Source: Patescibacteria group bacterium (lineage in GTDB: Bacteria > Patescibacteriota > Microgenomatia > UBA8517). Taken from it: DNA of 64,000 bases. Where the stretch lies: positions 20,549-84,548 of the forward strand of contig DATDRP010000003.1 in NCBI GenBank assembly GCA_035291665.1, in the 5' to 3' direction. Each line of letters opens with the position of its first letter. Positions within the stretch are counted from its first letter, which is position 1. The position numbers and the translations under genes are program-made. Under the pieces are notes generated by a model, which was given only the letters and a program-made list of their open reading frames with translations, had not been told where the DNA came from and did no database searches. Shown in pieces: positions 594 to 64,000 of this stretch.

Positions 594-3500
594 ATGAAAT
601 TTAATATAAAAGATAAAAAGACAGGTTTAATGGTTTCTCTGATCGCAGCGGCTGTAGTTATTCTCGTAATTTCGTTTATTGTGGTAAAGGGACCAAAAAA
701 GAATGAAGAAATTACATTTGAAAATACTGGGAATAAAACACTTGTCATAAACATCGACAAAAACCAATATCTTCCTGGTGAAGAGGTCTATATCCAAATG
801 GCTTCTCTTGACGATCAGGGAAACACTCTTTGCAACAGCAAGCTCGAAATAGTTATAACCAACAACCTACAACCTACCCCCTACAACCTACCCCCTACAA
901 CCTACAACCTGTCTGTATTCCCCTCTACGACCTGTAGTCCTGACAATAACGTTACCAATAGTCCTGATTATTATGCTTATTTCATTCCCAAAGATATTGG
1001 AATTTATAAGATAACACTCAAAAACATTGACACTGGCAACACTGTAAAAACTGAATTTGAAGTGAGAGATAATCCGCCGGATCTGTCCGTCACTCGTTGG
1101 AGTGCAACCCGTATCAATCCTTCCAAATCCAGCCGTTATCCGATGGTGATAACTGTAACAGCAAACGAGGACTTCATAGGTACAATATCCGATACAATTC
1201 CTGAATCATACAGCTTTGCTTGGACAGGACCGGGAAAAGTTGAAGGGAACTCAATCACTTGGGAAGCGAAATTAAAAAAAGGCGAAAAAACCGAACTTAA
1301 ATATGAATACATACCCGAAAAAGTAAGCCCAAAATTATTTACAATCGGCCCGATTATTACCAGTAAACCACAAAACATTACTAACAACTTACAACTTACA
1401 ACCTACAACTCGACATGGTATATCGCATCTGACTCCGTTATAACCAGCAAAACCACCGGTGGTGATTGGAACGTCGGAGGCTCATGGGTTGGTGAAGTTG
1501 CACCTGGGACGGGAGATTCGGCGGTGATTGCTACAACCGGCGCAAGTACCATCGTTTTAACAAGCAGTCCGACTGTTTTGGCATTAACTATTAATAGTGG
1601 TTCTATTCTCACCAATAATTCCACCGCTCAAACTCTCACACTGACCACCACTTCTGTAACACCTCTTACCAACAGTGGAACATTTACACCGAGCACATAT
1701 ATAACAATTGTTGTCAACGGAGCCGCCGCCATAAACCCAGTACTTTCTGGGACTTGGACCGGCAGTAGTTCTTTTTATAACCTGGAATTCAGACCGGCTC
1801 TCGGAACAACAGCCAGAACTTACACGATGGGTACCGCTTTTACGGTTAACGGAAACATGATCCTTTATCCCACCACAAGCTCAGAAAGAGCTCTTACTGT
1901 TACCCTGAGCGGTACATCGACTGTGGTCGGAACAACCACGCTCAACGGTACCGGATGTAATGACGCCGGAGATAGCACTTCCGGCTCTTCAGTTCTTAAT
2001 ACCAACGCGCAAACTTTTTCTTCCGGAAAAATCGATATCAAAGAAAACGCTGAATTTTGTATACTTACAGGAAGCGCTGCTACAATTACCTTAACAGGCA
2101 CTTCCGGGACACTTTTAACTAATCCAAATGCCGGTTCTTTTACACAATCCACTTCTACCATCAATGTTACAAGCACCTCCGGCCCGGTACAGTTATTTTC
2201 AGCTGCTGAAACTATCTATAACCTAACCATCAATTCCTCCTCGGCAACCACTGTTGTCAACTCAGGTGCAACACCGACATTTGCATCCAGCGGTGCTTTG
2301 ACTATTACTTCAGGAGTTTTGAATTTTGATACAGGAGTAACAGGTCCGGGAAACAGTACCCTAACAATCGGAGCTTCTGGAACACTGTGTCTGGGTGGAA
2401 CTGCCGCTGCAACAAACACCAGTGTAACCTGCAATACCGGAGCCACCTCAACTTCTGCGATCCTAATGCCATCTTTTACAACTTACACTTTTGACGCATC
2501 ATCAACTGTTATTTTTCTTTCAGATATTGACCTAACCGCAGCAAATGTAATTTCCCGGATAGCCGGTAATAGCTACGGCAATCTCTATCTTTATCCTACA
2601 TTTGTCACAACATCGCGCGCATATACTTTTGAAACAGGAACTTTAAGTATTGCCGGTAACTTTACGATTAATCCAAACGAATCGGGCGCGGGTTCTCCTG
2701 TTCTAACAGTAAACTTGGGCGGAACAACCACCATTGCAGCTGGAAAAACTACCACAATTACTGCAACAAACAGTGCCGCCTCCAACTTAAACCAAGCCGC
2801 CAATACCAACACACTTTCTTCAGGGAAAATAGATATTGCTACAAAGGGAACACTCACTGCTATTACAACAGGCACTATTACTCTCACCGCCACATCAGGT
2901 ACCCTTTTTACCCGTGATACAAGCGGCTCTCCAGGAACTTTTACACAAGCTTCTTCAACTATTTCTGTAACCTCAGCCTCAGGTCCGGTACAACTGTTCT
3001 CTTCCACTAATACTATATATAGTTTGACAATTAATTCAGCTGCGGCAACTACTGTTGTCAACTCAGGTGCAACACCGACATTTGCATCCGGCGGAGCTCT
3101 GACTGTCACATCAGGAGTTTTGAATTTTGATACAGGAGTGACAGGTCCGGGAAACAGTACTCTTACAATCGGAGCTTCTGGAACGATGTGTCTGGGTGGA
3201 ACTTTGGCTGCAACAAACACCAGTGTAACCTGCAATACCGGAGCAACATCAACAACAGCTATCCCAATGCCATCATTCACAACATATACATTTGATGCAG
3301 CTTCAAAAGTAATTTATCTATCGGATGCAGATCTCACCGCAGGTAACGTAATCTCAAGATTGGCTGGTGGAAGCTACGGCAATCTCTACCTCTATCCAAC
3401 ATTTGTCACAACATCCCGCTCCTACACTCTCGAAACCGGAACTGTCGGCATAGCCGGAGATTTAATTATTAACCCTGATGAATCGGGTGCGGGTTCTCCA

Positions 3501-5537
3501 GTTCTAACAGTAAACTTGGGTGGAACAACCACCATCGCAGCCGGAAAAACTACCACAATTACTGCAACACACAGTGCTTCATCCATACTTGATGTCAATC
3601 CCGGTTCCAGTTATGACTTCTCAACAGGACTCTTGGTAACCGGTACCGGAGGTACATTAGACGCAACCAGTGCTTCCTCAACAATCACATTAACAGGAAC
3701 ATCAGGTACGCTATTTTCAAATAGCGGAACTTTTACAATAACCAGCGGAACTCCGACCGTATCAGTTACCGGAGGGACCGGAACAACCTTAAACTCAGGA
3801 ACGATCACTTTTTATAATTTAACAATCTCACCATCAGGAACAAGTACAATCAATGCTTTTACAGACGATTTAACGGTCACAAATACCTTAAATGTCGCCA
3901 CTGGCGACACATTTTCCCTACCTTCAGGTCAAGATCTGACTCATTCCGGTGCAACTCTGACCTTAGACGGAACAATTTCAGGGTCCGGCAGGTACATTTA
4001 CCAAAGCGCTACTGCTTTTCCGGCAACCGGAGTTATAAGTTCCGTTCTTCGTATGGACTCAACCAACAATGACCAAACTATGTCAGGGACACAAACGTAC
4101 GGAGGTAATGTTGAAATCTATAACAACTCAACTTCTGCCCGAGTCATTACATTAGGTACAGCCGGAAGCCAAACTCTGACTTACAGCGGCGATGTCACTT
4201 TAAATGCGGCAAATAGCGGAAGCGTCAGCTTAACTGCTTCAGCTACCTATAATCCGGCCGTAACAATATCAACCGGAAATCTCGCGGGCACTGCTGGAAA
4301 CGGAACTGAAAATATTACAACCGGGACTGGAACCTGGATCGTGGGTGGAAGCGTTGATCTGACAAATGTCGGAACATTCACGGCTACAGGTGGGACTTTC
4401 CAAATGAACGGTGCGAGTAAAACTTTGACTTCCTCGGGTAAGTCTTTTAACAATTATTCCGTAACGGGCGGATCCGTCCAGTTTGCCGATACAACCGATA
4501 TCGACGCCGATCTTGCTATAACATCAGGAACTTTGGATTTGAACGGACAAACAATTACAATTGGAGGCAGTTTTGATAATGACGCTGCAATGTCCCACAA
4601 CAATGCTTCTGTTACTTTCAATGCCGCATCCGGAGCCAAAACTATCGATGCCGACGGAACGGGGGCCGATGCTTTTTACGATATAACTTTTGACCAGGGA
4701 ACATCTGCTTCATGGCAGATAACCGGAGCGCTTGATGCTGACCATAATTTTACGATTACCGACGGGACTGTTGACGCCAATGCTCTCGCTATCAATGTCG
4801 GAAACAATTGGGCCAACAGTGGAGGAACCTTTACTTCAAATTCAAATGTCGTTACGATGGATGCGCAGGATGCCGGTAATACTTTAACCGGTACAATGAC
4901 GGGGACCTCGTCTTTCTATGATCTGGTTTTCAACGACGGAGGTAGTTCCGGCGCTTGGTCTTTCGCCGCCAATTCTGCAACAATTACTCATGATTTTACT
5001 ATAACAGCTGGAGTTGTTACTGCTCCTTCTACAACTCTCACCATTGGTGAAGATTTCAGGAATAATGAAGCAACAGGGTCTTTTGTTAATAACTCCGGAA
5101 CGGTAACTTTTAATACAACTAACCCATCCTATCTTTTATATGCAGCCACAACCACCTTTTACCATCTTATTATTTCAACAGCAACCAAGCAGGTATATTT
5201 TGAAGATACCGACGGAGTCGTCACCGATATCAATGGCAGTCTTACGATACAAGGAACTGATTGTGATATTAATCGGGTTTTCTTAAACTCGAATCTGGAT
5301 GATGAGGATTGGGAAATTGATGCCACTGATGCGGGTTTCGGCAATGTTGATATAGATTATGCCGACGTTGAAGACTCAACAGCCAACGGAGATCAGATAA
5401 CGGCCAATAATTCGACTGCAGACAATTTGGGAAACACAAATTGGAGTATCGTTGCCGGTGCATGCAATCCGGTGACTCCCAATCAACCGAATGTTCGTGG
5501 TAATCTTAAAATTAAAGGAGGGGTAAGGATTCTCTGA
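594..5537 (+). CDS. Giant (1647 aa) secreted/surface protein with N-terminal signal-anchor and T/S/G-rich parallel beta-helix-like repeats (adhesin-like)
   Basis: Long ORF with an N-terminal hydrophobic helix (LMVSLIAAAVVILVISFIVV). Repetitive 'TLTGTSGTL...VNSGATPTFAS...GVLNFDTGVTGPGNSTLTIGASG' units typical of beta-helix adhesins. Contains an internal 267-aa tandem duplication. Confidence 0.6.
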   Translation: MKFNIKDKKTGLMVSLIAAAVVILVISFIVVKGPKKNEEITFENTGNKTLVINIDKNQYLPGEEVYIQMASLDDQGNTLCNSKLEIVITNNLQPTPYNLPPTTYNLSVFPSTTCSPDNNVTNSPDYYAYFIPKDIGIYKITLKNIDTGNTVKTEFEVRDNPPDLSVTRWSATRINPSKSSRYPMVITVTANEDFIGTISDTIPESYSFAWTGPGKVEGNSITWEAKLKKGEKTELKYEYIPEKVSPKLFTIGPIITSKPQNITNNLQLTTYNSTWYIASDSVITSKTTGGDWNVGGSWVGEVAPGTGDSAVIATTGASTIVLTSSPTVLALTINSGSILTNNSTAQTLTLTTTSVTPLTNSGTFTPSTYITIVVNGAAAINPVLSGTWTGSSSFYNLEFRPALGTTARTYTMGTAFTVNGNMILYPTTSSERALTVTLSGTSTVVGTTTLNGTGCNDAGDSTSGSSVLNTNAQTFSSGKIDIKENAEFCILTGSAATITLTGTSGTLLTNPNAGSFTQSTSTINVTSTSGPVQLFSAAETIYNLTINSSSATTVVNSGATPTFASSGALTITSGVLNFDTGVTGPGNSTLTIGASGTLCLGGTAAATNTSVTCNTGATSTSAILMPSFTTYTFDASSTVIFLSDIDLTAANVISRIAGNSYGNLYLYPTFVTTSRAYTFETGTLSIAGNFTINPNESGAGSPVLTVNLGGTTTIAAGKTTTITATNSAASNLNQAANTNTLSSGKIDIATKGTLTAITTGTITLTATSGTLFTRDTSGSPGTFTQASSTISVTSASGPVQLFSSTNTIYSLTINSAAATTVVNSGATPTFASGGALTVTSGVLNFDTGVTGPGNSTLTIGASGTMCLGGTLAATNTSVTCNTGATSTTAIPMPSFTTYTFDAASKVIYLSDADLTAGNVISRLAGGSYGNLYLYPTFVTTSRSYTLETGTVGIAGDLIINPDESGAGSPVLTVNLGGTTTIAAGKTTTITATHSASSILDVNPGSSYDFSTGLLVTGTGGTLDATSASSTITLTGTSGTLFSNSGTFTITSGTPTVSVTGGTGTTLNSGTITFYNLTISPSGTSTINAFTDDLTVTNTLNVATGDTFSLPSGQDLTHSGATLTLDGTISGSGRYIYQSATAFPATGVISSVLRMDSTNNDQTMSGTQTYGGNVEIYNNSTSARVITLGTAGSQTLTYSGDVTLNAANSGSVSLTASATYNPAVTISTGNLAGTAGNGTENITTGTGTWIVGGSVDLTNVGTFTATGGTFQMNGASKTLTSSGKSFNNYSVTGGSVQFADTTDIDADLAITSGTLDLNGQTITIGGSFDNDAAMSHNNASVTFNAASGAKTIDADGTGADAFYDITFDQGTSASWQITGALDADHNFTITDGTVDANALAINVGNNWANSGGTFTSNSNVVTMDAQDAGNTLTGTMTGTSSFYDLVFNDGGSSGAWSFAANSATITHDFTITAGVVTAPSTTLTIGEDFRNNEATGSFVNNSGTVTFNTTNPSYLLYAATTTFYHLIISTATKQVYFEDTDGVVTDINGSLTIQGTDCDINRVFLNSNLDDEDWEIDATDAGFGNVDIDYADVEDSTANGDQITANNSTADNLGNTNWSIVAGACNPVTPNQPNVRGNLKIKGGVRIL
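2020..3620 (+). repeat. Internal tandem duplication, 2 x 801 bp (~85-90% identical), inside the 594..5537 CDS
   Basis: Copy 1 'ggaaaaatcgatatc' at 2032 and copy 2 'gggaaaatagatatt' at 2833. 'caatcggagcttctggaac' occurs at 2365 and 3166. The period of 801 is a multiple of 3, and substitutions are of all types. Confidence 0.8.
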
Positions 5538-21199: not shown

Positions 21200-21379
21200 A
21201 ACACTGTAACCAAGCAACCGAATTTCCAATTACGTAATTGATCTAATTACTAAATAATTACCAATAACCAAGCATCAAATTACAAATAATAATTAATTTA
21301 CAAATATTAATCAGGTATTAATTGTTAATTTTCTCAATACAGATAGTTTTTTTATTGAAATTTAGTGATTGTAAATTTG

Positions 21380-21991: not shown

Positions 21992-22100
21992 GGTTCACTA
22001 ATTTTATACTAATTTTCACTAATTATATTCCATAAAAAACTCGTGATCAATCAATTCGCGTTTTTAATTCGCAATCAATTCGCGATTTAATAATTCGTAG

Positions 22101-25840: not shown

Positions 25841-26218
25841 TTACAGCGACGAAGGTTGGAGAATTTTATTTATCTTTTTACCCATCTCTTTCGGTTTAAT
25901 ATCTTTTTTAACCCAATAATCAATAGCGCCTTTTTCCTTTGCAAGATCCATATCATTTTCCCCGGACAAATTGGTAAGCATGACAATCGGGATATTTTGT
26001 ATTTCAGGATCTGTCTTAATTTTTTCGAGTGCTTCGATCCCATTCATTCCCGGCATCATAATATCCATCAAAACAATATCAGGCTTCCAATCACGCGTTT
26101 TGGCAACTCCATTTTCACCACCCATCGCAAGTTCTACTTCAAAGTTATCGAACGCCAATGCTTTCTCGTACATTCTTGCCACCAGCGGCTCATCTTCAAC
26201 TATTAAAACCCTTGTCAT
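25841..26218 (-). CDS. Stand-alone response-regulator receiver (REC) protein
   Basis: 125 aa. 'RVLIVEDEPLV...IVLMDIMMPGMNGIEAL...IPIVMLTNLSG...DYWVKK'. Confidence 0.8.
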   Translation of the reverse strand: MTRVLIVEDEPLVARMYEKALAFDNFEVELAMGGENGVAKTRDWKPDIVLMDIMMPGMNGIEALEKIKTDPEIQNIPIVMLTNLSGENDMDLAKEKGAIDYWVKKDIKPKEMGKKINKILQPSSL

Positions 26219-28204: not shown

Positions 28205-28594
28205 TCAGCCGGATTTCGACGCCGAACCTAAATATTTTTCAACCAAATCGCCTAATTTTGCTATATCGGTTTTACTTTTAATAAGATAACCGGCGGCACC
28301 TTTTTCCATTGCAAGTTCCGCATCATTTTTCCCGGAAAGATTCGTAAGCATTACGATCGGAATTTTTGCCGTTTTGGGATTGCTTTTTAATTTATCCAAG
28401 ACTTCAATTCCGTCGGGTTCCGGCATCATAATATCAAGGAAAATAAAATCAGGATTTTCTGATTCTGCTTTTTCAAGTCCTTCTTTCCCGCCGATTGCCA
28501 GAACGGTATCATACTTTGCGAACCTGAGGGCTTTTTCATACATTCTTGCCACCAGCTCTTCATCTTCGACTAATAGTACTTTCACCATAATCAC
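28205..28594 (-). CDS. Stand-alone response-regulator receiver (REC) protein
   Basis: 129 aa. 'KVLLVEDEELV...FIFLDIMMPEPDGIEVL...IPIVMLTNLSGKND...GYLIKS'. Confidence 0.8.
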   Translation of the reverse strand: MIMVKVLLVEDEELVARMYEKALRFAKYDTVLAIGGKEGLEKAESENPDFIFLDIMMPEPDGIEVLDKLKSNPKTAKIPIVMLTNLSGKNDAELAMEKGAAGYLIKSKTDIAKLGDLVEKYLGSASKSG

Positions 28595-28654: not shown

Positions 28655-29056
28655 ATGGCCAAATTAATCTTCCCTAAATTAAGTTATACCATAATGGGAA
28701 TCCTTTTTCAGATTCATGCAAAACTCGGGAATCAATATCAAGAAAAATACTACCAACGAGCATTAGAATCGGCCTTAAAAGAACATGATATAAAATATAA
28801 AAAAGAACTCAAATCGGACTTATTTTATAACGAAGTAAAGATAGGGAAATATTTTCTCGACTTTTTGATTGAAGATAAAATTATATTAGAGTTAAAGACT
28901 AAACCCTTTTTTACTGGTCAGGATATAAGACAGGTTTTAGCTTACTTAAAAGCCAACAATAAACGTTTAGGTATTCTGGCAAATTTTAGAACTGGAAGTC
29001 TCACATATAAAAGAATTATTAATAACCACTACACCCCATTCATAAATAATTCGTGA
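28655..29056 (+). CDS. GxxExxY family protein (PD-(D/E)XK-like fold)
   Basis: 133 aa. 'HAKLGNQYQEKYYQRALESAL...DFLIEDKIILELKT' matches the GxxExxY signature and the downstream D...E.K motif. Gene is flanked by AATTCGTGA-type repeats. Confidence 0.7.
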   Translation: MAKLIFPKLSYTIMGILFQIHAKLGNQYQEKYYQRALESALKEHDIKYKKELKSDLFYNEVKIGKYFLDFLIEDKIILELKTKPFFTGQDIRQVLAYLKANNKRLGILANFRTGSLTYKRIINNHYTPFINNS

Positions 29057-29105
29057 TTCCTATTCGTGAGCAATTCGTGATTTAGTGTATTAAATTCGTA
29101 AGTAA

Positions 29106-31457: not shown

Positions 31458-31571
31458 ACATTCATATTAACAAACAATACCTCACTAATTAATTGCTAAT
31501 TCCAATTGGAGATTAATTCGTGTTTCTAATTTGTGAGTAATTAGTGATCAAAATTCGCTTGCAATTCGTGA

Positions 31572-33821
31572 TTAAATTTCTTCCATAATTCCCTTAATCT
31601 CTTCCTCATTCAAAACCCCCGTTACAACTTTGACTACACTTCCCCGGCGGTCCAAAAACAAGTGGGTCGGGAGTGAGTTGATATTCAATTCTTCCATTAG
31701 CTCACCATCTGCATCGACGACAATATCGTATTCATATTGCCCGCGGCGAGAAAAAATTAAAACTCTGGATAGAGTTTCCTGACTTGCGATAACTGCACCT
31801 TTTATTGTCCGGTCCTTTAGTAACCTATCCAATACTGACACCTGTTCAATAGCCAGCGGGTTCCAGCTTCCGATAAAGCTAATTACCGCATTGTCTCCTC
31901 TTAAATCCCTGATATCGAATACTTTGTCGTTTATTGTGGGAAGATTAAAATTATCAAGAATTTTCCCCATCAGAGGATTTGAAATATTACCAATCTCAGC
32001 TTGTTTTATCCTGATAAGAGCTTTTTCGGTTAAATATTTTACAAAACCGAACCTGAAAAAACCGAAATTCAACCCGCTTGCTTTGGAAAGTTCAAAATCG
32101 GAATTCAAGACCGTTGATCTTTCTAAAGAAAATATTTGGCTCGTCAGAATGTCATAGCCTGATGCTTTGACTGTTAAATAATATGTTCCGGGCGGAAGTA
32201 AATATTGGTAAACACCATCTTTTATGTCTTGCGGATTGTCCTGTCCGAAAGTCTTCCCATCCCAAACATTCCAGATTTTTGTTAACGGATCCTGGACATA
32301 GACCGTAACTTTTCCTTTTGAAATAGATTTACCTGATTCCTTATCGCTTATTTCACCGGGTCCGACAACCAAAATTTTGTTTAATGTTTTTGTTGTAATG
32401 TTACCTGCTCCATCAACAGCTTTTGCCGAAAGATCATACAATCCGACTTCAGGAAAATTAATAAATCCCGACCATAGCCCCGTATCAACCGATTGATCGA
32501 GTGGAAATGTCAGATCACCTGCATAAAGCGTCACTTCGGATGGACCGCCAACGGTAGAAAGGGTTACCTTGTGGTCAATTCCCGTCATCGTGATAATCAC
32601 ACCTTCTTCGTTCGGGATAAGGGGTTGCGGGCCTACCGATATCAAATTTCCCCCAACTCGCGGAGGAAGCCTGTCGATGACAAGAATTATTGTCTCAGAT
32701 TTTCCTGTATTTCCCCGTTCATCAAGAGCTCTTACAATAACCTCGTAATTTCCATCTTCAAAAACATAAGGCAGGAAATCAAAAGTTACTTCATCGGTCC
32801 CCAAGTTTTCAGTATTATCGGCTGGCAGCCAATTCTCCCCTCCGTCTGTTGAATATGAAACGCTTGCGACTTCTTCATTATCGGTTGCCGTTCCTTCAAT
32901 AACCGGAGGTTCGGTGTAACTTGATTCAATATCGGTCGTCAGGCTCACCCGGGGAGCAGTTCTATCAACCGGAATTGGCGTGGGGGTTGGAGTTGACGTA
33001 GTTGTAGTAGTGGTAGGAGTTGGGGTTGAAGTTGCTGTTGCGGACGTCGGAGCAGCAGTCGCTCCGGTTGCAGAAGTTGAAAACGTATATTCACTTGAAC
33101 AACCTTGATTACCAGAACCATCAGTCGAACACACGCGGTAATAATAAGGCGTACCGGCCGCTAAAGACTGGGTAATTGTTAAGGAATGAGAAGTAACCAT
33201 TTGTGAACCACTTGCCGAAAAAGGATATATTTGCTCCTCCGCATTAACGTCATACTGAACTACAGAACTTGCTGATTCATTAGTCGTCCAAGTAATAGTT
33301 GCGGAACCTGTTGTGATTGAACTCGCGGTGACATTTGTAATTGTTGGTGCTGTAACATCATTTTGGCCAGTGACCGTAAAAATCAAACTTCCAGTACAAC
33401 TTACCGGATTTGCTCCACCGCTATCATCGGAAACCTGAACAACCCAATCGCTGGAAGCACCTTCGATATCTCCAATGCTTAATGTTATAGTGGGGCTAAT
33501 CGAGGCTCCGGGAGCTAAGGAGGTCGATGCATAGCGAAACGTATATGAATCATTTGCTACATCTACATACCAGGAAGGATATATAGAATAACCTTGAAGA
33601 GTGGTTTCATTATGTGGCTTATATAATCTAATCCACAACACATTTGCAGACGGATCGCCATTTGTAACCGTGAATATATATGGAGACTGTACATTTGGTT
33701 GGTTATCTGTAGGTGTTGCGGTTGCAATACAAGATTCGATAGCTGCCTTTACGTTCACAGGAAAAATAATTTTAGCCAAAAAAACAAGGAATAATATAAC
33801 TAATAAAATAAATTTTCTCAC
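31572..33821 (-). CDS. Secreted FN3/Ig-like repeat surface protein with P/T-rich linker and C-terminal thioredoxin-like (TlpA/redoxin-like) fold lacking CxxC
   Basis: Signal peptide. 'TAPTITNVTASSITTGSATITWTTNESASSVVQYDV' is FN3-like. A (T/P)n linker. The C-terminal 'VFDIRDLRGDNAVISFIGSWNPLAIEQ...PTHLFLDRRGSVVKVVTGVLNEEEI' aligns to TlpA/ResA-type redoxins, but WCxxC is replaced by WNPLA. Confidence 0.5.
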   Translation of the reverse strand: MRKFILLVILFLVFLAKIIFPVNVKAAIESCIATATPTDNQPNVQSPYIFTVTNGDPSANVLWIRLYKPHNETTLQGYSIYPSWYVDVANDSYTFRYASTSLAPGASISPTITLSIGDIEGASSDWVVQVSDDSGGANPVSCTGSLIFTVTGQNDVTAPTITNVTASSITTGSATITWTTNESASSVVQYDVNAEEQIYPFSASGSQMVTSHSLTITQSLAAGTPYYYRVCSTDGSGNQGCSSEYTFSTSATGATAAPTSATATSTPTPTTTTTTSTPTPTPIPVDRTAPRVSLTTDIESSYTEPPVIEGTATDNEEVASVSYSTDGGENWLPADNTENLGTDEVTFDFLPYVFEDGNYEVIVRALDERGNTGKSETIILVIDRLPPRVGGNLISVGPQPLIPNEEGVIITMTGIDHKVTLSTVGGPSEVTLYAGDLTFPLDQSVDTGLWSGFINFPEVGLYDLSAKAVDGAGNITTKTLNKILVVGPGEISDKESGKSISKGKVTVYVQDPLTKIWNVWDGKTFGQDNPQDIKDGVYQYLLPPGTYYLTVKASGYDILTSQIFSLERSTVLNSDFELSKASGLNFGFFRFGFVKYLTEKALIRIKQAEIGNISNPLMGKILDNFNLPTINDKVFDIRDLRGDNAVISFIGSWNPLAIEQVSVLDRLLKDRTIKGAVIASQETLSRVLIFSRRGQYEYDIVVDADGELMEELNINSLPTHLFLDRRGSVVKVVTGVLNEEEIKGIMEEI

Positions 33822-47584: not shown

Positions 47585-48921
47585 TTAGAGTGTATTGGTA
47601 TGAGAACCCGAGAATAATTGAGATTCCGCTTCCGGCAACAGAAATTACTATTCAGGACTTGACTGATCAGATTAAAGATCTTGAAGACGAACCTGCAAAT
47701 CTTGCCTTCCCGATTTTGGTAAAAACCTTCGGTAAGCAGCCGTTGGGAGCAGGTGTTTATGTAGGTATCACAGCTGAACTGCAAAATGCCAAAGTGTCTT
47801 TTGCAGCCAGAGATGGAACCGATATCCCACCGGAGGTGCTTTGTACAATCTCCGGTGGAAATTTGGTTGCTGTCGATGAAAATGGCGTTCCTATGAACCC
47901 AATACACCCGACTGCGTATACTCAAGTTGTTCTTGCCCAGTCCTCCTCGGCAACAATTGCCACACCGCCGTCGGACTACAGTTTGCTGTATCTTGTGGAG
48001 TCACTGCGGGGAAACCACGCATCGGTTGGGAACATTTGGTACTGGGACCCGGTTAGCGGGTCTGATACCAATGACGGGACCACGCCATCAAACGCAGTGC
48101 AAACCTTCGCTAAGGTTCAATCACTTTCTGATTTGGCAAACGGGGTTAATGATATCGTTTTCGCGCTCGTTACCGACCCATCCGGTATTACAACGGTTAC
48201 AAATGAAAATATTAATATCACCTCTTCTACACCAGGCATGAAACTCCGGGGGCCGGGGTATGCCTTTCAATTCAAACCGGCAACGGCGGGTAGCGATGTG
48301 ATTACAATATCTGCCGACAATGTTGAAGTCAGCGGCTTTTATATCCAGCCAAAATCTCCGGGATCCGATAACGGTATCACGGTAACCGGTGATAGTGCTC
48401 TTATTAAAGATATCTGGGTTGATACGGCAACCGCCAATGGAATTGATATCAGCACTTCCTCAAGAACCAAAATTGAAAAGTGCGTCATCGAAAACTGCAC
48501 CGGAAACGGAGTTAATCTTGGCGCGTCAACGATCAAATCCAATATCACAACCTGTATCATCTCCGGTTGTGTCAACGGGGTTGATCTAGGAGGGTCGGGG
48601 TTAACCGACAATATCCTGGAAAATAATGTTATTTATAATAATTCCGGTTATGGGATTGATATCGGTGCCGGAGTTTTGCGGACGGGTGTTCGGATGCATC
48701 ACACGTTTTCTAATAACACTTCGGGCAGTTATTACGACGAACCGCCCACTGCAGCAAAATACACTTTTGTCGAAGAAGGTGTTGCAACCGGAGATATAAA
48801 CGCTATTGTAGATGCAGTTTGGGATGAGGTTATCTCACCTTCCGCCCATACCGGTGCCCAATCAGCGGGTAAAACTCTTCGCGATGCAAAAACAAAAGCC
48901 ACTCTGGCATCACTTAAGTAA
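47578..48921 (+). CDS. Right-handed beta-helix (pectin-lyase fold, tailspike-like) protein
   Basis: Repeats 'GNGVNLGASTIKSNITTCIISGCVNGVDLGGSGLTDNILENNVIYNNSGYGIDIGAG' are typical parallel beta-helix rungs. No signal peptide. The start is placed at the ATG at 47578, because the track's GTG at 47536 overlaps the divergent TPR gene. Confidence 0.45.
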   Translation: MALRVYWYENPRIIEIPLPATEITIQDLTDQIKDLEDEPANLAFPILVKTFGKQPLGAGVYVGITAELQNAKVSFAARDGTDIPPEVLCTISGGNLVAVDENGVPMNPIHPTAYTQVVLAQSSSATIATPPSDYSLLYLVESLRGNHASVGNIWYWDPVSGSDTNDGTTPSNAVQTFAKVQSLSDLANGVNDIVFALVTDPSGITTVTNENINITSSTPGMKLRGPGYAFQFKPATAGSDVITISADNVEVSGFYIQPKSPGSDNGITVTGDSALIKDIWVDTATANGIDISTSSRTKIEKCVIENCTGNGVNLGASTIKSNITTCIISGCVNGVDLGGSGLTDNILENNVIYNNSGYGIDIGAGVLRTGVRMHHTFSNNTSGSYYDEPPTAAKYTFVEEGVATGDINAIVDAVWDEVISPSAHTGAQSAGKTLRDAKTKATLASLK

Positions 48922-48934
48922 TTTTGTAAATTAG

Positions 48935-49235
48935 AGATAAGAAAAAAAATGGGATGTGGGAAGTGGGTTCTAAGTAATAGGTTGTAAGCAGTAAGTTGTA
49001 GGAGGTAGGTTGTAGGAGATAGGTTATAGGAAAAGAGAAATGAGTTGTGGGAAGAGAAACTGGGAATGAGATGTGAGTTGTGAGTAGTGGGAAATACAGA
49101 TAAGAAATTAGGAATATAGGAATTAAGAAATTTAGAATAAAGAGAATAGAGAAATAGGAAAAATAATTGCGGAAGGGAGATTGATAATTGTAAAATAAAT
49201 CCTATATTAATGGTGTTGTGAAGACTAACGAAGTA
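48935..49235. repeat. Composite repeat island C (modules X and Y)
   Basis: Module X 'gggatgtgggaagtgggttctaagtaataggttgtaagcagtaagttgtagg' and module Y 'gtgggaaatacagataagaaattaggaatataggaattaagaaatttagaataaagagaatagag'. Only ~5 C in ~240 nt on the + strand. Confidence 0.75.
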
Positions 49236-49427
49236 TTACTCAGCTTTTGGATCGGTCGGCTCTTCTTTGACTGCTTTTTCGAATTCACTTTTAGCCTGTT
49301 TTATGCCTTTTGTGGTTTCACCGGCTTTCTTGCCAAGACCTCTGAAAATTGCTCCACCGAAGAATAAAAGTACTACTAAAACGATAATGATAATTTCGGT
49401 CGTTCCGATATTTTGAAGAAATCCCAT
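49236..49427 (-). CDS. tatA: Twin-arginine translocase subunit TatA/E family
   Basis: 63 aa. 'MGFLQNIGTTEIIIIVLVVLLFFGGAIFRGLGKKAGETTKGIKQAKSEF' gives N-terminal TM + FG hinge + amphipathic helix. Flanked on both sides by GT-rich repeat islands. Confidence 0.7.
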   Translation of the reverse strand: MGFLQNIGTTEIIIIVLVVLLFFGGAIFRGLGKKAGETTKGIKQAKSEFEKAVKEEPTDPKAE

Positions 49428-49439
49428 ATTAAAAAATAT

Positions 49440-49900
49440 ATTAATACTAAGATTCCCGAATGTCCAGTAGCAGTTTTACCCCATATTAGTAAAGGGTGAC
49501 AGAAAATTAGATTTAAGTTTAAGTTGTATGTTGTAGGTGATAGGAAGTGAGTAATGAGAAGTGAGATGTGAGAAATAAGAGTTAAGAGGTAGGTTGTAGG
49601 TGGTGGGATGTGGGATGTGAGTGGTGGGAAATACAAATAAGAATTTAGGAATACAGGAATTAAGAGAAAAGAAATGGGATGTTGGAAGTGGGTTTTAAGT
49701 AATAGGTTGTAAGTAGTAAGTTGTGGGAAAAAGGTTGTAGGTTATAGGTTATAGGAGCGAAGTTAGAAATATAGAAATTTAGTATTTTGTTTTAAGTTTT
49801 CAATTGAAGAACATTGGCCATTTAGCATTCGTATCTCGTCTCACGTATCACGTATTACATCGCTTGGTTTGAAAAGTACCGAACTAACAAGATCTCATTG
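49440..49900. repeat. Composite repeat island D (modules Y then X, then 'CGTATCTCGTCTCACGTATCACGTATTAC' module)
   Basis: Y: 'gtgggaaatacaaataagaatttaggaatacaggaattaagag'. X: 'gggatgttggaagtgggttttaagtaataggttgtaagtagtaagttgtggg'. These are the same modules as island C in swapped order. The tail module is shared with island F. Confidence 0.75.
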
Positions 49901-49934
49901 ACAGTTTCGATTACATCAAATTAATATTACCTGT

Positions 49935-50606
49935 ATGCCTTCAGCTTTATACAATAGAAAATACGTACAGAATGGCTACTATTATATTTATCACAAGTCC
50001 TCGGGAGGAAAAGAATTATTCCGCGATGAAGATGACTATTTGAATTTTGTTAAAACTTTTCAATATTATTTGACATCACCCACCGGTAAACCTCTAAGTC
50101 AAACAAAAAAAGAGGATTTAACCCAAACACCTTCACATATCCAGCTCTCTTTCAGGATACTACTGTTTGTCCTTCTACCCAAAAGTATACACATATTAAT
50201 CCGACAAAATACTCCCCCTCAGACCAACAATAATATAACTAATCTGATGCGAAGACTTTCTATCACTTATTCGATGTACTATAAAAACAGATACGATACT
50301 CATGAAAGCTTATTTGATGGGAAGTATAAAAATATTAATATCCCCGACAACGAAAAACTTCTTTATTTGTCCAAACATATTCACAGAATGCCCCTTGACC
50401 TTTATCCGCAGGAAACACTTGAGAAATACATTTACTCCAGTTATCCCTTTTATATTGGTGTGGCCGGCAAACCCGATTGGTTAGATACAAAAATAATATC
50501 CGATATACTCTTACGGTCAAGTCCGGGTTTGGGATACAAAAATTTTGTTGAAAATTCACACCTTGGCAAAGACTTGGATAAGAAATATATCGTGAATGGG
50601 GGTTAA
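49935..50606 (+). CDS. IS200/IS605-like Y1 (HuH) transposase / RAYT-like protein with degenerate HuH motif
   Basis: 'NGYYYIYHKSSGGKELFRDEDDYLNFVKTFQYYL' corresponds to the N-terminal block (YHVxxRGNxRxxIFxDDxDxxxFL). 'KSIHILI' sits at the HuH position, where the first His is replaced. 'ITNLMRRLSITYSMYYKNRY...SLFDGKYK' corresponds to the LxxLxxxYT...WQxRY(K) block with the candidate catalytic Tyr. Confidence 0.5.
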   Translation: MPSALYNRKYVQNGYYYIYHKSSGGKELFRDEDDYLNFVKTFQYYLTSPTGKPLSQTKKEDLTQTPSHIQLSFRILLFVLLPKSIHILIRQNTPPQTNNNITNLMRRLSITYSMYYKNRYDTHESLFDGKYKNINIPDNEKLLYLSKHIHRMPLDLYPQETLEKYIYSSYPFYIGVAGKPDWLDTKIISDILLRSSPGLGYKNFVENSHLGKDLDKKYIVNGG

Positions 50607-50692
50607 CAACCAATAATTAAATCTATATATCTGTTTTTTGGGACTCTTGATCAAACTATAAGAAGAAAGTATGATTAGGAAACAATAAATTT

Positions 50693-50938
50693 ATGTTTTC
50701 CAACATCGGCGTCACTGAAGTTATTATCATCATCTTGGTTCTGACTGTGATTCTCGGCAGTAAGAAAATGGGAGAACTTGCCAGCAATGCCGGACGGGCT
50801 GGCGCTGAGCTAAAAAAAGTCAAAAAGGAATATGAAGCTGCTATGAAAGAATTGGACAAGGAAATCAACGTTGATGATGAAAAAAAAGAAAAATCAGAAA
50901 AGAAAGATTCTTCAGAAAAAAAAGGAGGTGAGCTTTAA
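50693..50938 (+). CDS. Tat translocase subunit, TatB-like (TatA/B family with extended charged tail)
   Basis: 'MFSNIGVTEVIIIILVLTVILGSKKMGELASNAGRAGAELKK' has the TatB-like 'LG' hinge instead of FG. The long K/E-rich C-terminal tail is TatB-like. It overlaps the next tatA by 1 nt (TAATG). Confidence 0.55.
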   Translation: MFSNIGVTEVIIIILVLTVILGSKKMGELASNAGRAGAELKKVKKEYEAAMKELDKEINVDDEKKEKSEKKDSSEKKGGEL

Positions 50939-51078
50939 TGGCTAATTTTGGAGTACCGGAACTTCTCATTATTTCATTAATACTTGTGTTCATGTTCGGA
51001 AGCAGAAAAATTCCGGAATTCATTAAAGGTATGGGTCAGGGAATCAAAGAATACCGAAAAGCTGTAAGCCGTAAGTAA
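50938..51078 (+). CDS. tatA: TatA family protein (46 aa; absent from ORF track because <60 aa)
   Basis: ATG at 50938 overlaps the upstream stop (TAATG). Translation is MANFGVPELLIISLILVFMFGSRKIPEFIKGMGQGIKEYRKAVSRK, with stop TAA at 51076-51078. Canonical TatA TM-FG-amphipathic helix. Confidence 0.7.
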   Translation: MANFGVPELLIISLILVFMFGSRKIPEFIKGMGQGIKEYRKAVSRK

Positions 51079-51100
51079 ACCTTGGATTTCAACGTAAATT

Positions 51101-51835
51101 ATGCCCAAAACGCAGGAGCTTCAACTTGAAGAGTCCATAAATAAATATTATCCGTTTCTGATGGAAATCAGGAAAAGACTTTTATTCCTGGCAACAATCT
51201 TTGTGGTTTCCGCAGTCGGGGGATTTTTTTATTACGAACGGATTGTCAGAATAATTGTTGATTTTTTGTCGCTTGACGGCATCAACATTGTTTTCACCTC
51301 GCCTTTCCAGTACTTAAATCTTGCCGTTGATGTTGCCTTCCTGGTCGCAGTAATTGTTATCTTTCCGGTAATCATCTATCAGATAATAACTTTCCTACGT
51401 CCCGCTCTCAAAAAAAGTGAGTACAATTTAATGATCTCCTTAATCCCCATTGGTTTTTTCCTATTTATATTCGGCTTCATCTACGGAGTTGTCATGATGC
51501 GCTATGTTATGCAACTATTTTTCGAAAAATCAGTCGAGCTTAATATCGGCAACATGCTGGATATAAGCTCGCTACTTTCCAAAATAGTATCAACTTCAAC
51601 TTTTATGGGTTTAGCTTTTGAATTTCCAATCGTTGTCACGGCTTTGGTAAAACTTAAAGTTATAAAACTTAAAGTCGTTTCCCAACAAAGAGTTTACGCC
51701 TGGTTTGCATCCCTGATCTTCGCGGCAATGCTGCCGCCTACGGATCTGCTTTCTTTGGCACTTCTGACTATGCCTCTTGTAATCCTATTCGAATTTACGC
51801 TATTATTTAACAGATTATTTTCTTTGAGAAAATAA
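51101..51835 (+). CDS. tatC: Twin-arginine translocase subunit TatC
   Basis: 244 aa, six TM helices. 'GLAFEFPIVVTALVKLKVI' and 'AAMLPPTDLLSL' match conserved TatC segments (FE-PV, P-TD). Confidence 0.8.
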   Translation: MPKTQELQLEESINKYYPFLMEIRKRLLFLATIFVVSAVGGFFYYERIVRIIVDFLSLDGINIVFTSPFQYLNLAVDVAFLVAVIVIFPVIIYQIITFLRPALKKSEYNLMISLIPIGFFLFIFGFIYGVVMMRYVMQLFFEKSVELNIGNMLDISSLLSKIVSTSTFMGLAFEFPIVVTALVKLKVIKLKVVSQQRVYAWFASLIFAAMLPPTDLLSLALLTMPLVILFEFTLLFNRLFSLRK

Positions 51836-51912
51836 TCATATTATAAGTCCGGTTAGATTTGGGCACTTGCCAAGCCCGATCGCACCTAACCATAGAGAGG
51901 GAGTGATAGTAA

Positions 51913-52059
51913 ATGTTAAGAGGTATTGGAACTACAGAACTATTAATCATTGCTGTTGTACTTTTGGTGTTGTTCGGAGGTAAGAAGTTGCCTGAACTTG
52001 GAAAAGGAATCGGAGACGCTATCCGAGAGTTCAGAAATTCAATGAAGAATAAGGAATAA
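51913..52059 (+). CDS. tatA: TatA family protein (48 aa; <60 aa, not in ORF track)
   Basis: SD GGGAG lies 9 nt upstream of ATG 51913. Translation is MLRGIGTTELLIIAVVLLVLFGGKKLPELGKGIGDAIREFRNSMKNKE, with stop at 52057-52059. Confidence 0.7.
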   Translation: MLRGIGTTELLIIAVVLLVLFGGKKLPELGKGIGDAIREFRNSMKNKE

Positions 52060-52509: not shown

Positions 52510-52564
52510 ACGGGTAAGATAGTTGCGCATATAATTAATATTGTCCTGTATAATCGCTACAAAA

Positions 52565-52730
52565 TATAATCTCTGATGTGAGAGTTGAGAGATGAGATGT
52601 GGGAAGTGAGAAGTGAGTTGTAAGCAGTAGGTTGTAGGTAATAGGTTGTGGGAGGTAGGAAATTGGTATATTCCTAATATCTTAATATCGAAGCACATAA
52701 TATCTCTCCTATTCGTGATCAGTTCGTGAT
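52565..52730. repeat. Composite repeat island E (GT-rich module + 33-nt 3' motif + TTCGTGAT pair)
   Basis: 'gatgtgagagttgagagatgagatgtgggaagtgagaagtgagttgtaagcagtaggttgtaggtaataggttgtgggaggtagg', then 'cctaatatcttaatatcgaagcacataatatct' (52673-52705), then 'attcgtgatcagttcgtgattc'. Confidence 0.75.
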
Positions 52731-53304: not shown

Positions 53305-53631
53305 AAGCACTATGGCCAGGCGCTAGGTATAAGGTAGTGAGAAGTGAGAAATGAGATGTGGAAATTGAGATGTGGGAAGTAAGTGGTGGGAAGTGGAAAA
53401 TAGGTTGTAGGAGGTAGGATATCAGGAATATAGGAATTAAAGGAATAAGTAGTTTCGTTCTTCTTTTTTCGTCTCTCGTATCCCGTATAACTTGTCACTT
53501 GTTACGTATTACTTTTCCCCTACCGCTTGATATCTTTCCTATTCGAGTTCAATTCGTAGCTATAATTCGTGATAATTAGTGATGTAAATTTGTGAGCTAA
53601 ATTCGTGAGTTCAATTCGTCTTAACTCGTAG
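53305..53631. repeat. Composite repeat island F (GT-rich module, 'TCGTCTCTCGTATCCCGTATAAC...ACGTATTAC' module, AATTCGTGA array)
   Basis: 'ggtagtgagaagtgagaaatgagatgtggaaattgagatgtgggaagtaagtggtgggaagtggaaaataggttgtaggaggtagg', then 'cgtctctcgtatcccgtataacttgtcacttgttacgtattac', then 'caattcgtagctataattcgtgataattagtgatgtaaatttgtgagctaaattcgtgagttcaattcgt'. Confidence 0.75.
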
Positions 53632-59889: not shown

Positions 59890-60065
59890 AAAGGGATATT
59901 ACGTGCTTCGATATTAAGATATTAGGACTATTTCAATTTTTAATTTCCCTCTTTCCACCACTCACATCTCACTTCCCATTACTCATTTCCAATTTCTTTT
60001 CTCTTTTCTCTTTATTCTAAATTACTTAATTCTTAAATTCCTGTATTCCTAAATTCTTATTTCTA
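59890..60065. repeat. Composite repeat island G (reverse orientation: 33-nt motif complement, then CT-rich complement of modules X/Y)
   Basis: 'gatattacgtgcttcgatattaagatattagg' (59895-59926) is the reverse complement of the 33-nt motif. '...ctctttattctaaattacttaattcttaaattcctgtattcctaaattcttatttc' is the reverse complement of module Y. Confidence 0.7.
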
Positions 60066-60070
60066 ATGTG

Positions 60071-60141
60071 TGGACCGGCCGAGAATCGAACTCGGGACTC
60101 GTCGTTGCGAACGACGCGGTATTCCACTTACCTATCGGCCC
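60071..60141 (-). tRNA. tRNA-Ala (anticodon CGC)
   Basis: Reverse complement folds as acceptor GGGCCGA / CCGGTCC (G3:U70 alanine identity pair; A7:C66 mismatch). D-arm GGTA-AGTGGAA-TACC. Anticodon stem CGTCG/CGACG with loop TTCGCAA (anticodon CGC). T-arm CCGAG-TTCGATT-CTCGG. Discriminator A. CCA not encoded. Confidence 0.85.
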
Positions 60142-60240
60142 TGTGATGGCACTATTATACCAATAAATGAATTTACAAAACACATTAGCCATAGTTCATA
60201 CTCTCTATCTAATATCGAATCACTTAATATCAATTTATTT

Positions 60241-61526: not shown

Positions 61527-62876
61527 TCAAGAAGTTGTGAGTGAATCCAAAAACTCTTTGTTGTCCTTGGTTTTTTTGAGTCTTTCCAATAGAGCTTCCG
61601 TCCGTTCATCTTCCGAAACCATCTCAAGCATACGTCGGAGTGTATACACCTTTTGCAGAATATCTTTACCGTAAAGAAGCTCCTCCTGGCGGGTGCCCGA
61701 TCTTGTAACGTCAATTGATGGGAAAATTCTTCGGTCTGCCAATTTTCGATTAAGGTGCAGTTCCATATTTCCCGTACCTTTGAATTCTTCATAAATAAGG
61801 TCATCCATTCGCGAACCCGTATCAACCAAACAGGTTCCAATGATTGTCATTGATCCGCCGTTTTGAATCTTTCTTGCCGCTCCGAAAAATTTCTTTGCAG
61901 GATATAAAGCAACCGGATCGAACCCTCCTGTTAGAGTTCTTCCCGATGTGGGAAGTGCCAGATTGTATGCCCTGGCCATTCTTGTTATTGAATCCAAAAG
62001 AACTACAACATCCATCCCCATTTCAACCATCCTCTTTGCTTTCTCAAGCGCAAGTTCTCCGACTCTTGTTTGGGCATCGGGTGACTCGTCAAAGTTTGAT
62101 GATGCGACTTCACCCAATCCGTTGGTGACTGTATTCATATGCATCCTGATGTCCGTTACTTCTTCCGGACGCTCCCCGATCAAAACCGCCATCAAATGCG
62201 CTTTTACATCGGATTTTCCATCCTCGGCAAAGTTTTTCGCAATCCCTGTAATAACATCTTTCAAAAGCCACGTTTTACCGGCCTTTGGAGGAGATACAAT
62301 AAGTCCTCTTTGTCCAAAGCCGATTGGCGCAACGAGATCAATTACTCGCGTTGTCAAAGGTTCTGCTCCGGTCGATAGAGTGATATGTTTGTCGGGGTAG
62401 ACTGCAGTCATGCTGTCATAATCAGGTCTCTCCAATAATTTTTCAGTGTCGGAACCGTTTACCTTCTCAACTTTCAAAAGCCCCCAATATCTTTCGTTTT
62501 CTTTCGGTGAACGCGCTTGTCCGCCAACCAAATCACCTACTCGCAGATTGAATCTTCTTATCTGTGAGGCTGAAATATAAACATCTTTATTGGAAGGGGT
62601 GAAATCAGGTCGGAGAAGTCCTGACCCTTCATTGGCAATATCCAGTACACCCTCGACATATTCTGTAGGAAGATTAGCGTCAGGCATATAACGGTCATAA
62701 CCGTTTTGACGATAGGGTTCATCCTGAACCGGATTAACATCATTGACAGGTGCTTCCGCTTTTATTGGTTCCGGCTTCTCACCTACAAGATTTTTAACTT
62801 CGTCAACGGGTTTTACATCATTTCCGGGATCCAAAATTTCGTCTTTATCAGTCTTAGTGGACTTCTTTGTAGCCAT
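61527..62876 (-). CDS. rho: Transcription termination factor Rho
   Basis: N-terminal RNA-binding OB region '[14 protein letters not shown]...[44 protein letters not shown]'. Walker A 'SPPKAGKT'. '[13 protein letters not shown]' and the C-terminal '[39 protein letters not shown]' are highly conserved Rho blocks. Confidence 0.9.
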
Positions 62877-63841: not shown

Positions 63842-63884
63842 TAATACACTTTTAAAAAGATGGAATTTGTAAGACGAAATTTTT

Positions 63885-64000
63885 CACCACCCTCATCCCA
63901 TTTCCCATCTCTTACCACTTACTTCTCACAACCTGTCTCCAAAATCCAAAACCAAATCCCAAATTCCAATTTCATCTCCCTTTTCTCTATTCTCTTAGTT
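63885..64000. repeat. Repeat island H (reverse orientation, G-depleted on + strand)
   Basis: 'caccaccctcatcccatttcccatctcttaccacttacttctcacaacctgtctccaaaatccaaaaccaaatcccaaattccaatttcatctccc' is the reverse complement of GT-rich and GGAAATTGG-type modules. Continues beyond the window edge. Confidence 0.6.

What the first reader, a model, noticed from the sequence alone, without database searches (positions are those of the whole stretch)
49935..50606. RAYT/IS200-like Y1 transposase homolog with substituted HuH histidine, sitting inside the densest repeat region
The sequence follows the order of the IS200/RAYT family: YHV..RGN..IF.DD.D...FL, then the HuH block, then L..L...YT...WQ.RYK. The HuH position reads S-I-H-I-L-I, so the first metal-binding His is lost, while the Tyr-containing block 'LFDGKYK' is retained. 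RAYTs are known to mobilise REP/BIME repeats. Here the gene is flanked by islands C/D of a non-palindromic repeat family. This could be a domesticated or inactivated RAYT, or a variant that mobilises a different repeat class.
Basis: partly seen in the sequence, partly recalled or inferred. Interest (0 to 1): 0.55.

Follow-up and report, generated by a model that had tools for sequence, protein, structure and literature searches.

The report
Catalytically dead RAYT-like transposase homolog
This gene is a real but degenerate relative of the REP-associated tyrosine transposases; it has lost all three residues needed to cut DNA, and I found no link between it and the unusual 7-base repeat islands around it, so it is an ordinary dead or repurposed transposase gene.

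Summary
The ORF 49935..50606 (+, 223 aa) is real. It belongs to a large Y1/HuH transposase-like family, mostly from Patescibacteria, with class-2 "TnpA_REP/RAYT" motifs (NH[FY]H, FQ, YIH[LR]NP, SS).

The predicted structure is confident (pLDDT 92.7), and its best solved match is the E. coli REP-associated transposase 4ER8.

The catalytic Tyr (E. coli Y115) is His148 here. The metal-binding Asn of the Y---NP motif (E. coli N119) is Met152. So all three catalytic determinants are gone, along with four other near-invariant residues.

The protein sits on a branch about twice as long as its relatives'. It lacks the perfect hairpins that bracket many intact relatives. Two short contigs from other samples carry disrupted versions.

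The heptamer-periodic, C-free islands occupy about half of the large intergenic gaps in the window. They are rare in family loci from other genomes. Island-bearing metagenome loci almost never encode a family member.

Verdict: a catalytically dead RAYT-family gene, either a relic or a non-catalytic survivor, and not the mobiliser of the repeats. Low to moderate interest.

The parts
49935..50606 (+). ORF of 223 aa: degenerate member of the class-2 Y1/HuH (TnpA_REP/RAYT-like) family
   Evidence: ORF listed. Homologs P0002-P0007 carry PF01797. AlphaFold2 model pLDDT 92.7; best Foldseek match in the PDB is 4ER8, E=1.9e-7. Pfam gives no hit for the window protein itself. NCBIfam REP_Tyr_transpos gives 17.9 bits against a cutoff of 80.
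50184..50192 (+). Codons AGT-ATA-CAC = S84-I85-H86, the degenerate HuH motif (family consensus H-F/Y-H)
   Evidence: Alignment columns: His in 134 of 145 relatives at position 84 and in 141 of 145 at position 86. Aligned to H59-M-H61 of 4ER8.
50376..50393 (+). Codons for H148-I-H-R-M152-P153: the degenerate 'Y---NP' catalytic helix (family consensus Y-I-H-[LR]-N-P)
   Evidence: Tyr in 131 of 145 relatives at position 148 and Asn in 121 of 145 at position 152. Aligned to Y115...N119-P120 of 4ER8. Roles of Y115 and N119 come from PMC8266576 and PMC6006769.
49898..49927 (+). Promoter-like site TTGACA-18 nt-TAATAT ending 7 nt before the ATG (possible leaderless transcript)
   Evidence: Consensus scan, 10 of 12 matches. 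A pattern match only, not evidence of function.
50052..50104 (+). 53-nt stretch deleted in contig L089 from another sample, which shifts the reading frame. The bacA fusion junction of contig L090 lies about 10 nt upstream (~50043).
   Evidence: DNA alignment; protein fragments P0063, P0156 and P0157. These could be real population variants or assembly artefacts.
49501..49800 (+). Island E: C-free, heptamer-periodic repeat tract upstream of the gene, in the divergent gap shared with tatA(-). Context only; I found no functional link.
48914..49180 (+). Island D: related heptamer tract on the far side of tatA(-). It shares two modules at 89% identity with island E. Context only.
   Evidence: families D2 and D7.

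Best explanation
The ORF encodes a catalytically dead descendant of a class-2 Y1/HuH transposase-like protein (the TnpA_REP/RAYT branch).

Shown:
- It keeps the fold and the C-terminal tail of a family that is widespread in Patescibacteria.
- The first metal-binding His of HuH is Ser, the nucleophilic Tyr is His, and the Asn that completes the metal site is Met.

Inferred: it cannot form the 5'-phosphotyrosine intermediate, so it cannot cut or join single-stranded DNA. It is therefore not the engine of any repeat family in this genome. The heptamer islands around it are an independent, genome-wide feature of intergenic DNA.

Whether the protein is a decaying relic or is kept for a non-catalytic role (for example binding single-stranded or hairpin DNA) is open. 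The intact frame on a long branch favours some retained constraint. The disrupted variants and the absence of partner hairpins favour decay.
For: Homology and fold:
- (4ER8 is the best PDB match, E=1.9e-7, TM 0.68 normalised to the target).

Catalytic residues:
- map H84S, Y148H and N152M onto E. coli H59, Y115 and N119.
- Y115F is the catalytic mutant (PMC8266576). N119 is part of the metal site, and 'Y---NP' defines class 2 (PMC6006769).

Degeneracy beyond the active site:
- 7 of 25 columns that are at least 85% conserved are changed, against a family median of 1.

Long branch:
- Relatives are 45-61% identical to each other but 31-39% to the window protein.
- Three-point branch length is 0.66 for the window protein against 0.35 for relatives.

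No partner hairpins:
- The window flanks fold worse than shuffles (z +1.2 and +1.4). Flanks of relatives hold perfect 12-16-bp hairpins (z -3.5 to -6.3).

Disrupted variants:
-.

No repeat association:
-.

Single copy in the window:
-.
Against: - The reading frame is intact over the full family length. If the excess divergence (roughly 90 nucleotide changes) had been neutral, fewer than 1% of simulated ORFs would stay open. So the gene is not a long-dead pseudogene.
- 18 of 25 highly conserved positions are kept, including the SS motif and C-terminal tyrosines.
- A promoter-like site sits just upstream.
- Loss of activity is inferred from sequence, not measured.
- The three-point branch estimate would be inflated if the window protein is simply an outgroup to the relatives used.
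- The rest of the genome (a 606-kb contig) could not be searched for an intact paralog or for hairpin repeats.
Confidence: 0.75

Rival explanations
1. Exapted pseudo-enzyme. The protein is kept by selection as a non-catalytic binder of single-stranded or hairpin DNA or RNA, for example as a regulator or a genome-maintenance factor. Loss of the active site would then be part of that new role.
For: - Intact ORF despite a long branch.
- Retained structural core and C-terminal tail.
- 22 of 146 family representatives have independently lost at least one of H, H, Y while staying full length. They usually lose the Asn as well. This suggests the fold can persist without catalysis.
Against: - No close orthologs exist, so selection (dN/dS) cannot be measured. 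The nearest non-self relative is 41% identical.
- Frameshifted and truncated variants exist.
- There is no conserved neighbour or partner across 82 loci.
- Protein databases list only open ORFs, so recurrent 'dead but intact' members could just be early stages of decay.
Confidence: 0.35
2. One reading: a variant RAYT that mobilises the non-palindromic heptamer islands.
For: - Island E lies 135 nt upstream of the gene, and 4 of 8 intergenic islands lie within 4.7 kb of it.
- Many heptamer units contain GTAG, the tetranucleotide that E. coli TnpA_REP requires next to its REP hairpin (PMC8266576).
- In two relatives (L024, L052) a purine-rich tract lies 100-200 nt downstream of the gene.
Against: - All three catalytic determinants are lost.
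- The islands have no hairpin potential; one strand is C-free.
- They do not bracket the gene.
- They occupy about half of all large intergenic gaps.
- There are 16 tracts in this 64-kb window against 12 in about 1.2 Mb of family loci.
- Only 1 of 120 island-motif metagenome loci has a family gene.
- The partner repeats of relatives are perfect hairpins.
Confidence: 0.03
3. Still an active nuclease with a rewired site: Y144, one helical turn before position 148, acts as the nucleophile, and S84, H86 and H148 form the metal site.
For: Y144 lies four residues upstream of H148 on the predicted helix 139-150. Two-tyrosine helices exist in other HuH enzymes (general knowledge; not tested here).
Against: - Tyr at position 144 is common in intact members (35 of 131). 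It is not enriched in members lacking Tyr148 (2 of 14).
- Asn152 is also lost.
- Near-invariant Gly22 and Gly124 are replaced.
- I know of no precedent in this family.
Confidence: 0.04

Closest known systems
TnpA_REP / RAYT (REP-associated tyrosine transposase), class 2 of the TnpA_Y1 superfamily (Quentin et al. 2018, PMC6006769). The motif signature is closest to subclass 2.1, which is Bertels Group 1 (PMC5581495).
   Same: - Same fold: 4ER8 is the best structural match.
- Same motif order. The family consensus NH[FY]H, FQ, YIH[LR]NP and SS tail, at about 220-235 aa, matches the Table 1 signature of subclass 2.1.
- Low copy number and housekeeping neighbours.
   Different: - The window protein has lost the first HuH His, the catalytic Tyr and the NP-motif Asn.
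- It scores below every curated threshold.
- It has no flanking REP-type hairpins.
- Subclass 2.1 was described as not REP-associated, yet many Patescibacteria relatives here are bracketed by identical hairpins. The subclass assignment rests on motif signatures only and is provisional.
IS200/IS605 TnpA (IS608, ISDra2)
   Same: Same HuH/Y1 core fold (2XM3, 2A6O and 2VJV at E about 1e-4). Some relatives carry the same hairpin on both sides in direct orientation, as IS ends do.
   Different: - The helix motif is Y---NP rather than Y---Q.
- There is an extra C-terminal tail of about 70 aa.
- No tnpB gene, no high-identity multicopy pattern and no IS ends in the window.
Short tandemly repeated heptanucleotide arrays in intergenic DNA (cyanobacterial STRR; TAACTGA repeats of marine Beggiatoaceae, PMC4679880). 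This comparison is for the surrounding islands, not the gene.
   Same: Heptamer period, intergenic location and many dispersed arrays per genome.
   Different: Different unit sequences (GTAGGTT, GTGAGAA, GTGGGAA, AGGAATA). The units are highly degenerate and strictly C-free on one strand. The host is a Patescibacteria genome. The function of all these arrays is unknown. The STRR comparison is from my own knowledge and was not tested.

Membership tests
Y1 HuH transposase superfamily (Pfam PF01797 Y1_Tnp) | Sequence match above the Pfam gathering score | tested here: not met
   The window protein has no Pfam hit even at E<=10. Its intact homologs pass only narrowly (25-30 bits against a cutoff of 23).
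Y1 HuH transposase superfamily | HuH/Y1 core fold | tested here: met
   AlphaFold2 model pLDDT 92.7, pTM 0.89. Foldseek matches in the PDB are 4ER8 at E=1.9e-7 and ISDra2/IS608 TnpA at about 1e-4. The model relies on a family alignment.
Y1 HuH transposase superfamily | HuH motif with two metal-binding histidines | tested here: not met
   S84-I85-H86. The first His is present in 134 of 145 relatives. No alternative HuH is placed elsewhere by the profile alignment to 4ER8.
Y1 HuH transposase superfamily | Catalytic tyrosine on the C-terminal helix | tested here: not met
   His148, where 131 of 145 relatives have Tyr. This position aligns to Y115 of 4ER8.
TnpA_REP / RAYT (class 2) | Y---NP context, with the Asn completing the metal site | tested here: not met
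   The window protein reads H-I-H-R-M-P; the family consensus is Y-I-H-[LR]-N-P. The role of N119 is from PMC6006769.
TnpA_REP / RAYT (NCBIfam NF047646 equivalog) | Score at or above the curated cutoff of 80 bits | tested here: not met
   17.9 bits for the window protein and 37-45 bits for intact relatives. The whole Patescibacteria family lies outside the E. coli-type equivalog.
TnpA_REP / RAYT | Gene flanked by cognate REP hairpins (REPtron-like arrangement) | tested here: not met
   - Window: no perfect stem of at least 7 bp within 150 nt on either side. The flanks fold worse than shuffles. The best flank-to-flank inverted repeat is 29 nt at 76%, p about 0.02.
- Relatives: met in 19-22 loci under strict criteria, and in 44 of 76 loci by z>3.
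TnpA_REP / RAYT | Low copy number per genome in a housekeeping context | tested here: inconclusive
   One copy in the 64-kb window, and all 12 contigs carrying the protein show the same context. The rest of the genome was not available. Some relatives have two paralogs within 20 kb.
IS200/IS605 insertion sequence | Subterminal hairpin ends, frequent tnpB partner, near-identical multiple copies | tested here: not met
   No hairpin ends. No conserved neighbour. No second copy in the window.

The most novel reading that the evidence does not exclude
Within a Patescibacteria-wide RAYT-like family, about 15% of lineages, this one included, have independently lost the whole active site yet kept the full-length fold. 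This would mean the protein has a second, non-catalytic job, such as binding single-stranded DNA, hairpins or even GTAG-containing heptamer arrays. The window gene would then be a stable pseudo-enzyme rather than a relic.
Probability: 0.15. Interest if true: 0.55.

Novelty: new member of a known kind. Interest (0 to 1): 0.25.

Why it matters
This finding matters little for the gene itself. Inactive transposase relatives are common, and this one does not explain the repeats.

Two by-products have some value.
- The Patescibacteria family it belongs to is large, and many members are bracketed by identical perfect hairpins. This extends REP/RAYT-like systems into the Candidate Phyla Radiation.
- Catalytic residues are lost repeatedly in full-length members. 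This offers a test case for whether domesticated HuH proteins can keep a non-catalytic role.

The result also separates the heptamer islands from any transposase explanation, so they need their own account.

Tried and rejected
- Chance ORF: rejected because of homology at E about 1e-39.
- An intact HuH or Tyr placed elsewhere: rejected by the family alignment and the 4ER8 profile alignment.
- Tyr shift to Y144: no enrichment in Tyr-less members.
- Terminal inverted repeats around the gene: only a 29-nt, 76% match, p about 0.02 under a crude null model, with no hairpin. I treat it as chance.
- Conserved operon partner or a link to the Tat genes: none. The best neighbour cluster occurs in 13 of 82 loci, and the Tat adjacency is unique to this genome.
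- Phage or defence-system membership: no PHROGs or PADLOC hit.
- Known RNA in the flanks: Rfam finds only tRNA-Ala at 60071-60141.
- Correlating hairpin loss with catalytic loss across loci: no statistical power. The locus search pattern favoured intact HuH motifs, so only 4 degenerate genes were sampled (Fisher p=0.57).
- Rho/rut reading of the islands: rho is present, but only two intergenic gaps are informative for orientation. This stays an idea only.
- Searching the same genome for an intact paralog: not possible, because only the window and short flanks are reachable.

Full report
**Observation.** The window holds an intact ORF at 49935..50606 (+) of 223 codons. Its neighbours are a tatA-like gene on the minus strand (49236-49427), two tatA-like genes (50693-50938 and 50938-51078), tatC (51101-51835) and a fourth tatA-like gene (51913-52059). 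Further along lie a PrsW-like membrane protein and a GNAT acetyltransferase. An identical protein is deposited as a hypothetical protein of a Patescibacteria MAG on a 606-kb contig. It occurs on 12 contigs, always in the same context.

**Family and fold.** Pfam gives no hit for the window protein. NCBIfam gives only a weak match to REP_Tyr_transpos (E=0.0022, 17.9 bits against a cutoff of 80). Homology is nevertheless secure.
- Six relatives at 25-42% identity all carry PF01797.
- An exhaustive HMMER search of 1.84 billion cluster representatives finds 3607 relatives at E<=1e-3 and 435 at E<=1e-10. The nearest non-self relative is only 41% identical.
- Eighty genomic loci fetched with a family alignment come mostly from Patescibacteria lineages: Microgenomates groups, Saccharibacteria and Parcubacteria.
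- An AlphaFold2 model built on 100 family sequences is confident (pLDDT 92.7, pTM 0.89).
- Its best solved match is the E. coli REP-associated tyrosine transposase bound to a REP hairpin (4ER8, E=1.9e-7), followed by ISDra2 and IS608 TnpA.

**Catalytic residues.** I aligned 145 family representatives.
- The family profile aligned to 4ER8 places this motif on H59-M-H61. It places the family's Y-I-H-x-N-P on Y115-I-Y-I-N119-P of the E. coli enzyme.
- Y115F is the catalytic mutant of that enzyme (PMC8266576). N119 completes the metal site, and 'Y---NP' is the class-2 hallmark (PMC6006769).
- In the window protein this helix reads H148-I-H-R-M152-P. The nucleophile and a second metal-site residue are therefore also lost.
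It is Phe in 41 of 145 relatives.
- Further near-invariant positions are changed: H17Y, N20H, G22S, N117K and G124E. In total 7 of 25 columns that are at least 85% conserved are changed, against a family median of 1.

**Evolutionary state.**
- The closest relatives are 45-61% identical to each other but only 31-39% identical to the window protein. Three-point branch lengths are 0.66 against 0.35.
- If that excess had accumulated neutrally (about 90 nucleotide changes), fewer than 1% of simulated copies would still be open. This does not even count indels. The frame has therefore been under some constraint for most of that time, or the excess is overestimated because the window protein is an outgroup.
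- Two short contigs from other samples carry disrupted versions. One has a 53-nt frameshifting deletion (50052-50104). The other has a bacA gene fused about 10 nt upstream of that point. They may be real variants or assembly artefacts.
- Loss of catalytic residues is not unique. 22 of 146 representatives lack at least one of H, H, Y, usually together with the Asn. These are scattered among intact nearest neighbours.

**What intact relatives look like.** In 44 of 76 loci the 250 nt on either side of the gene share a significant reverse-complement match (z>3), and the top matches are themselves palindromes. Under strict criteria, 19 loci carry the same perfect hairpin on both sides.
- Stems are 7-20 bp.
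- The upstream hairpin ends a median of 29 nt before the ATG. The downstream hairpin starts a median of 14 nt after the stop.
- Orientation is direct in 10 loci and inverted in 8.
- There are 2-6 copies per locus.

These flanks fold far better than shuffles (z -3.5 to -6.3). The window gene's flanks fold worse than shuffles (z +1.2 and +1.4), with no stem of at least 7 bp within 150 nt. So where the family has a partner repeat, it is a REP-like hairpin. The window copy has none. Its nearest relatives (L002, L006) also lack them, so that loss may be older than the inactivation.

**The repeats.** The surrounding 'islands' are runs of degenerate heptamers (GTAGGTT, GTGAGAA, GTGGGAA, AGGAATA) that are C-free on one strand for 40-133 nt.
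- They occupy 8 of the 15 intergenic gaps of at least 180 nt in the window.
- Only island E is adjacent to the gene, on the upstream side. Islands D and E bracket the neighbouring tatA(-) gene and share two modules at 89% identity.
- The window has 16 such tracts in 64 kb. The 85 family loci have 12 in about 1.2 Mb.
- From the repeat side, 120 metagenome loci were selected by the 15-mer GTTGTAGGTTGTAGG. Of these, 43 contain genuine heptamer islands, but only one encodes a family member in 659 kb.
- No conserved gene neighbour exists across 82 loci.

**Mechanism.**
- Shown: the fold, the family and the loss of the three catalytic determinants.
- Inferred: the protein cannot make the covalent phosphotyrosine intermediate, so it is neither a transposase nor a nuclease.
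- I commit to this reading: a dead RAYT-family gene, unrelated to the heptamer islands (confidence 0.75).
- Within that reading, relic and retained non-catalytic binder are close to even. The open frame and conserved tail argue for retention. The disrupted variants, the replaced glycines and the missing hairpins argue for decay.

**Comparison and novelty.** The family's motif signature fits class 2 of the TnpA_Y1 classification and is closest to subclass 2.1 / Bertels Group 1. That subclass was described without REPs, whereas many Patescibacteria members here have bracketing hairpins. The subclass label therefore rests on motifs alone. The window protein fails the defining catalytic features and all curated thresholds. 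It is a degenerate homolog rather than a functional member. I rate it a new member of a known kind, with interest 0.25.

Noticed in passing
window 17822-17946, 21341-21516, 48914-49180, 49501-49800, 52564-52672, 53324-53436, 59927-60065 (-), 63877-63997 (-): Heptamer-periodic islands that are C-free on one strand fill 8 of 15 large intergenic gaps. The same kind of island occurs in 43 of 120 metagenome loci from varied environments. In some of those loci (L098, L102, L116) it appears as back-to-back G-rich and C-rich pairs. Function unknown. They resemble cyanobacterial STRR and Beggiatoa TAACTGA arrays in period and location.
   Followed up: partly
window 853-910 and 1364-1411, inside ORF 594..5537: Two heptamer tracts of the same family (in CCTACAA orientation) lie inside a 1647-aa ORF with no Pfam match. 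Either the repeats are translated, or the start of this ORF is mis-called.
   Followed up: no
window 61527-62876 (-): A Rho termination factor gene is present. Several islands would be transcribed as G-free, C-rich RNA downstream of genes, which looks like a rut site. Only two gaps are informative for orientation, so this remains an untested idea.
   Followed up: partly
window 16693-16735, 21536-21578, 52675-52717, 59895-59924 (-), 60210-60236: A 30-nt module, TAATATCTTAATATCGAAGCAC(A/G)TAATATC (three TAATATC units), recurs five times. In three cases it sits between a stop codon and a heptamer island.
   Followed up: no
window 16632-16690, 17942-17976, 22052-22086, 29047-29113, 31490-31572, 53540-53625; also 49828-49860 and 53480-53510: Other short-period intergenic arrays are present: 12-nt AATTCGTGAT-type units and CGTATCN heptamers. 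Intergenic DNA of this genome seems to be built largely of such degenerate tandem units.
   Followed up: no
window 20623-20643 and 20684-20704: Twin perfect hairpins CC(A/C)CCGAGTCGGACTCGG(T/G)GG lie 61 nt apart in one intergenic gap. They are the only GC-rich repeated hairpin in the window (0 of 100 shuffles reach the observed match count), and there is no Rfam match.
   Followed up: partly
window 49236-52059: Four TatA/B/E-like genes plus tatC are clustered around the finding. The minus-strand tatA is bracketed by islands D and E, which share two modules at 89% identity in swapped order.
   Followed up: partly
L010, L011, L020, L021, L026, L040, L074, L084 and others (gene at about 10001-10650 in each): Intact Patescibacteria relatives are bracketed by the same perfect hairpin just before the ATG and just after the stop (10 direct, 8 inverted). 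This is a REPtron-like or IS200-like unit.
   Followed up: partly
L001 (GCA_900089805.1, FLOH01000754.1): This contig has many G-free tracts of 45-88 nt, even inside called genes. This is an odd compositional feature of that assembly.
   Followed up: no
window 21584-21991, 25237-25614, 25841-26218, 28205-28594 (all -): Four paralogous ORFs of about 125-135 aa share 64-80% DNA identity in blocks (repeat families D4, D9 and D11). They were not annotated here.
   Followed up: no
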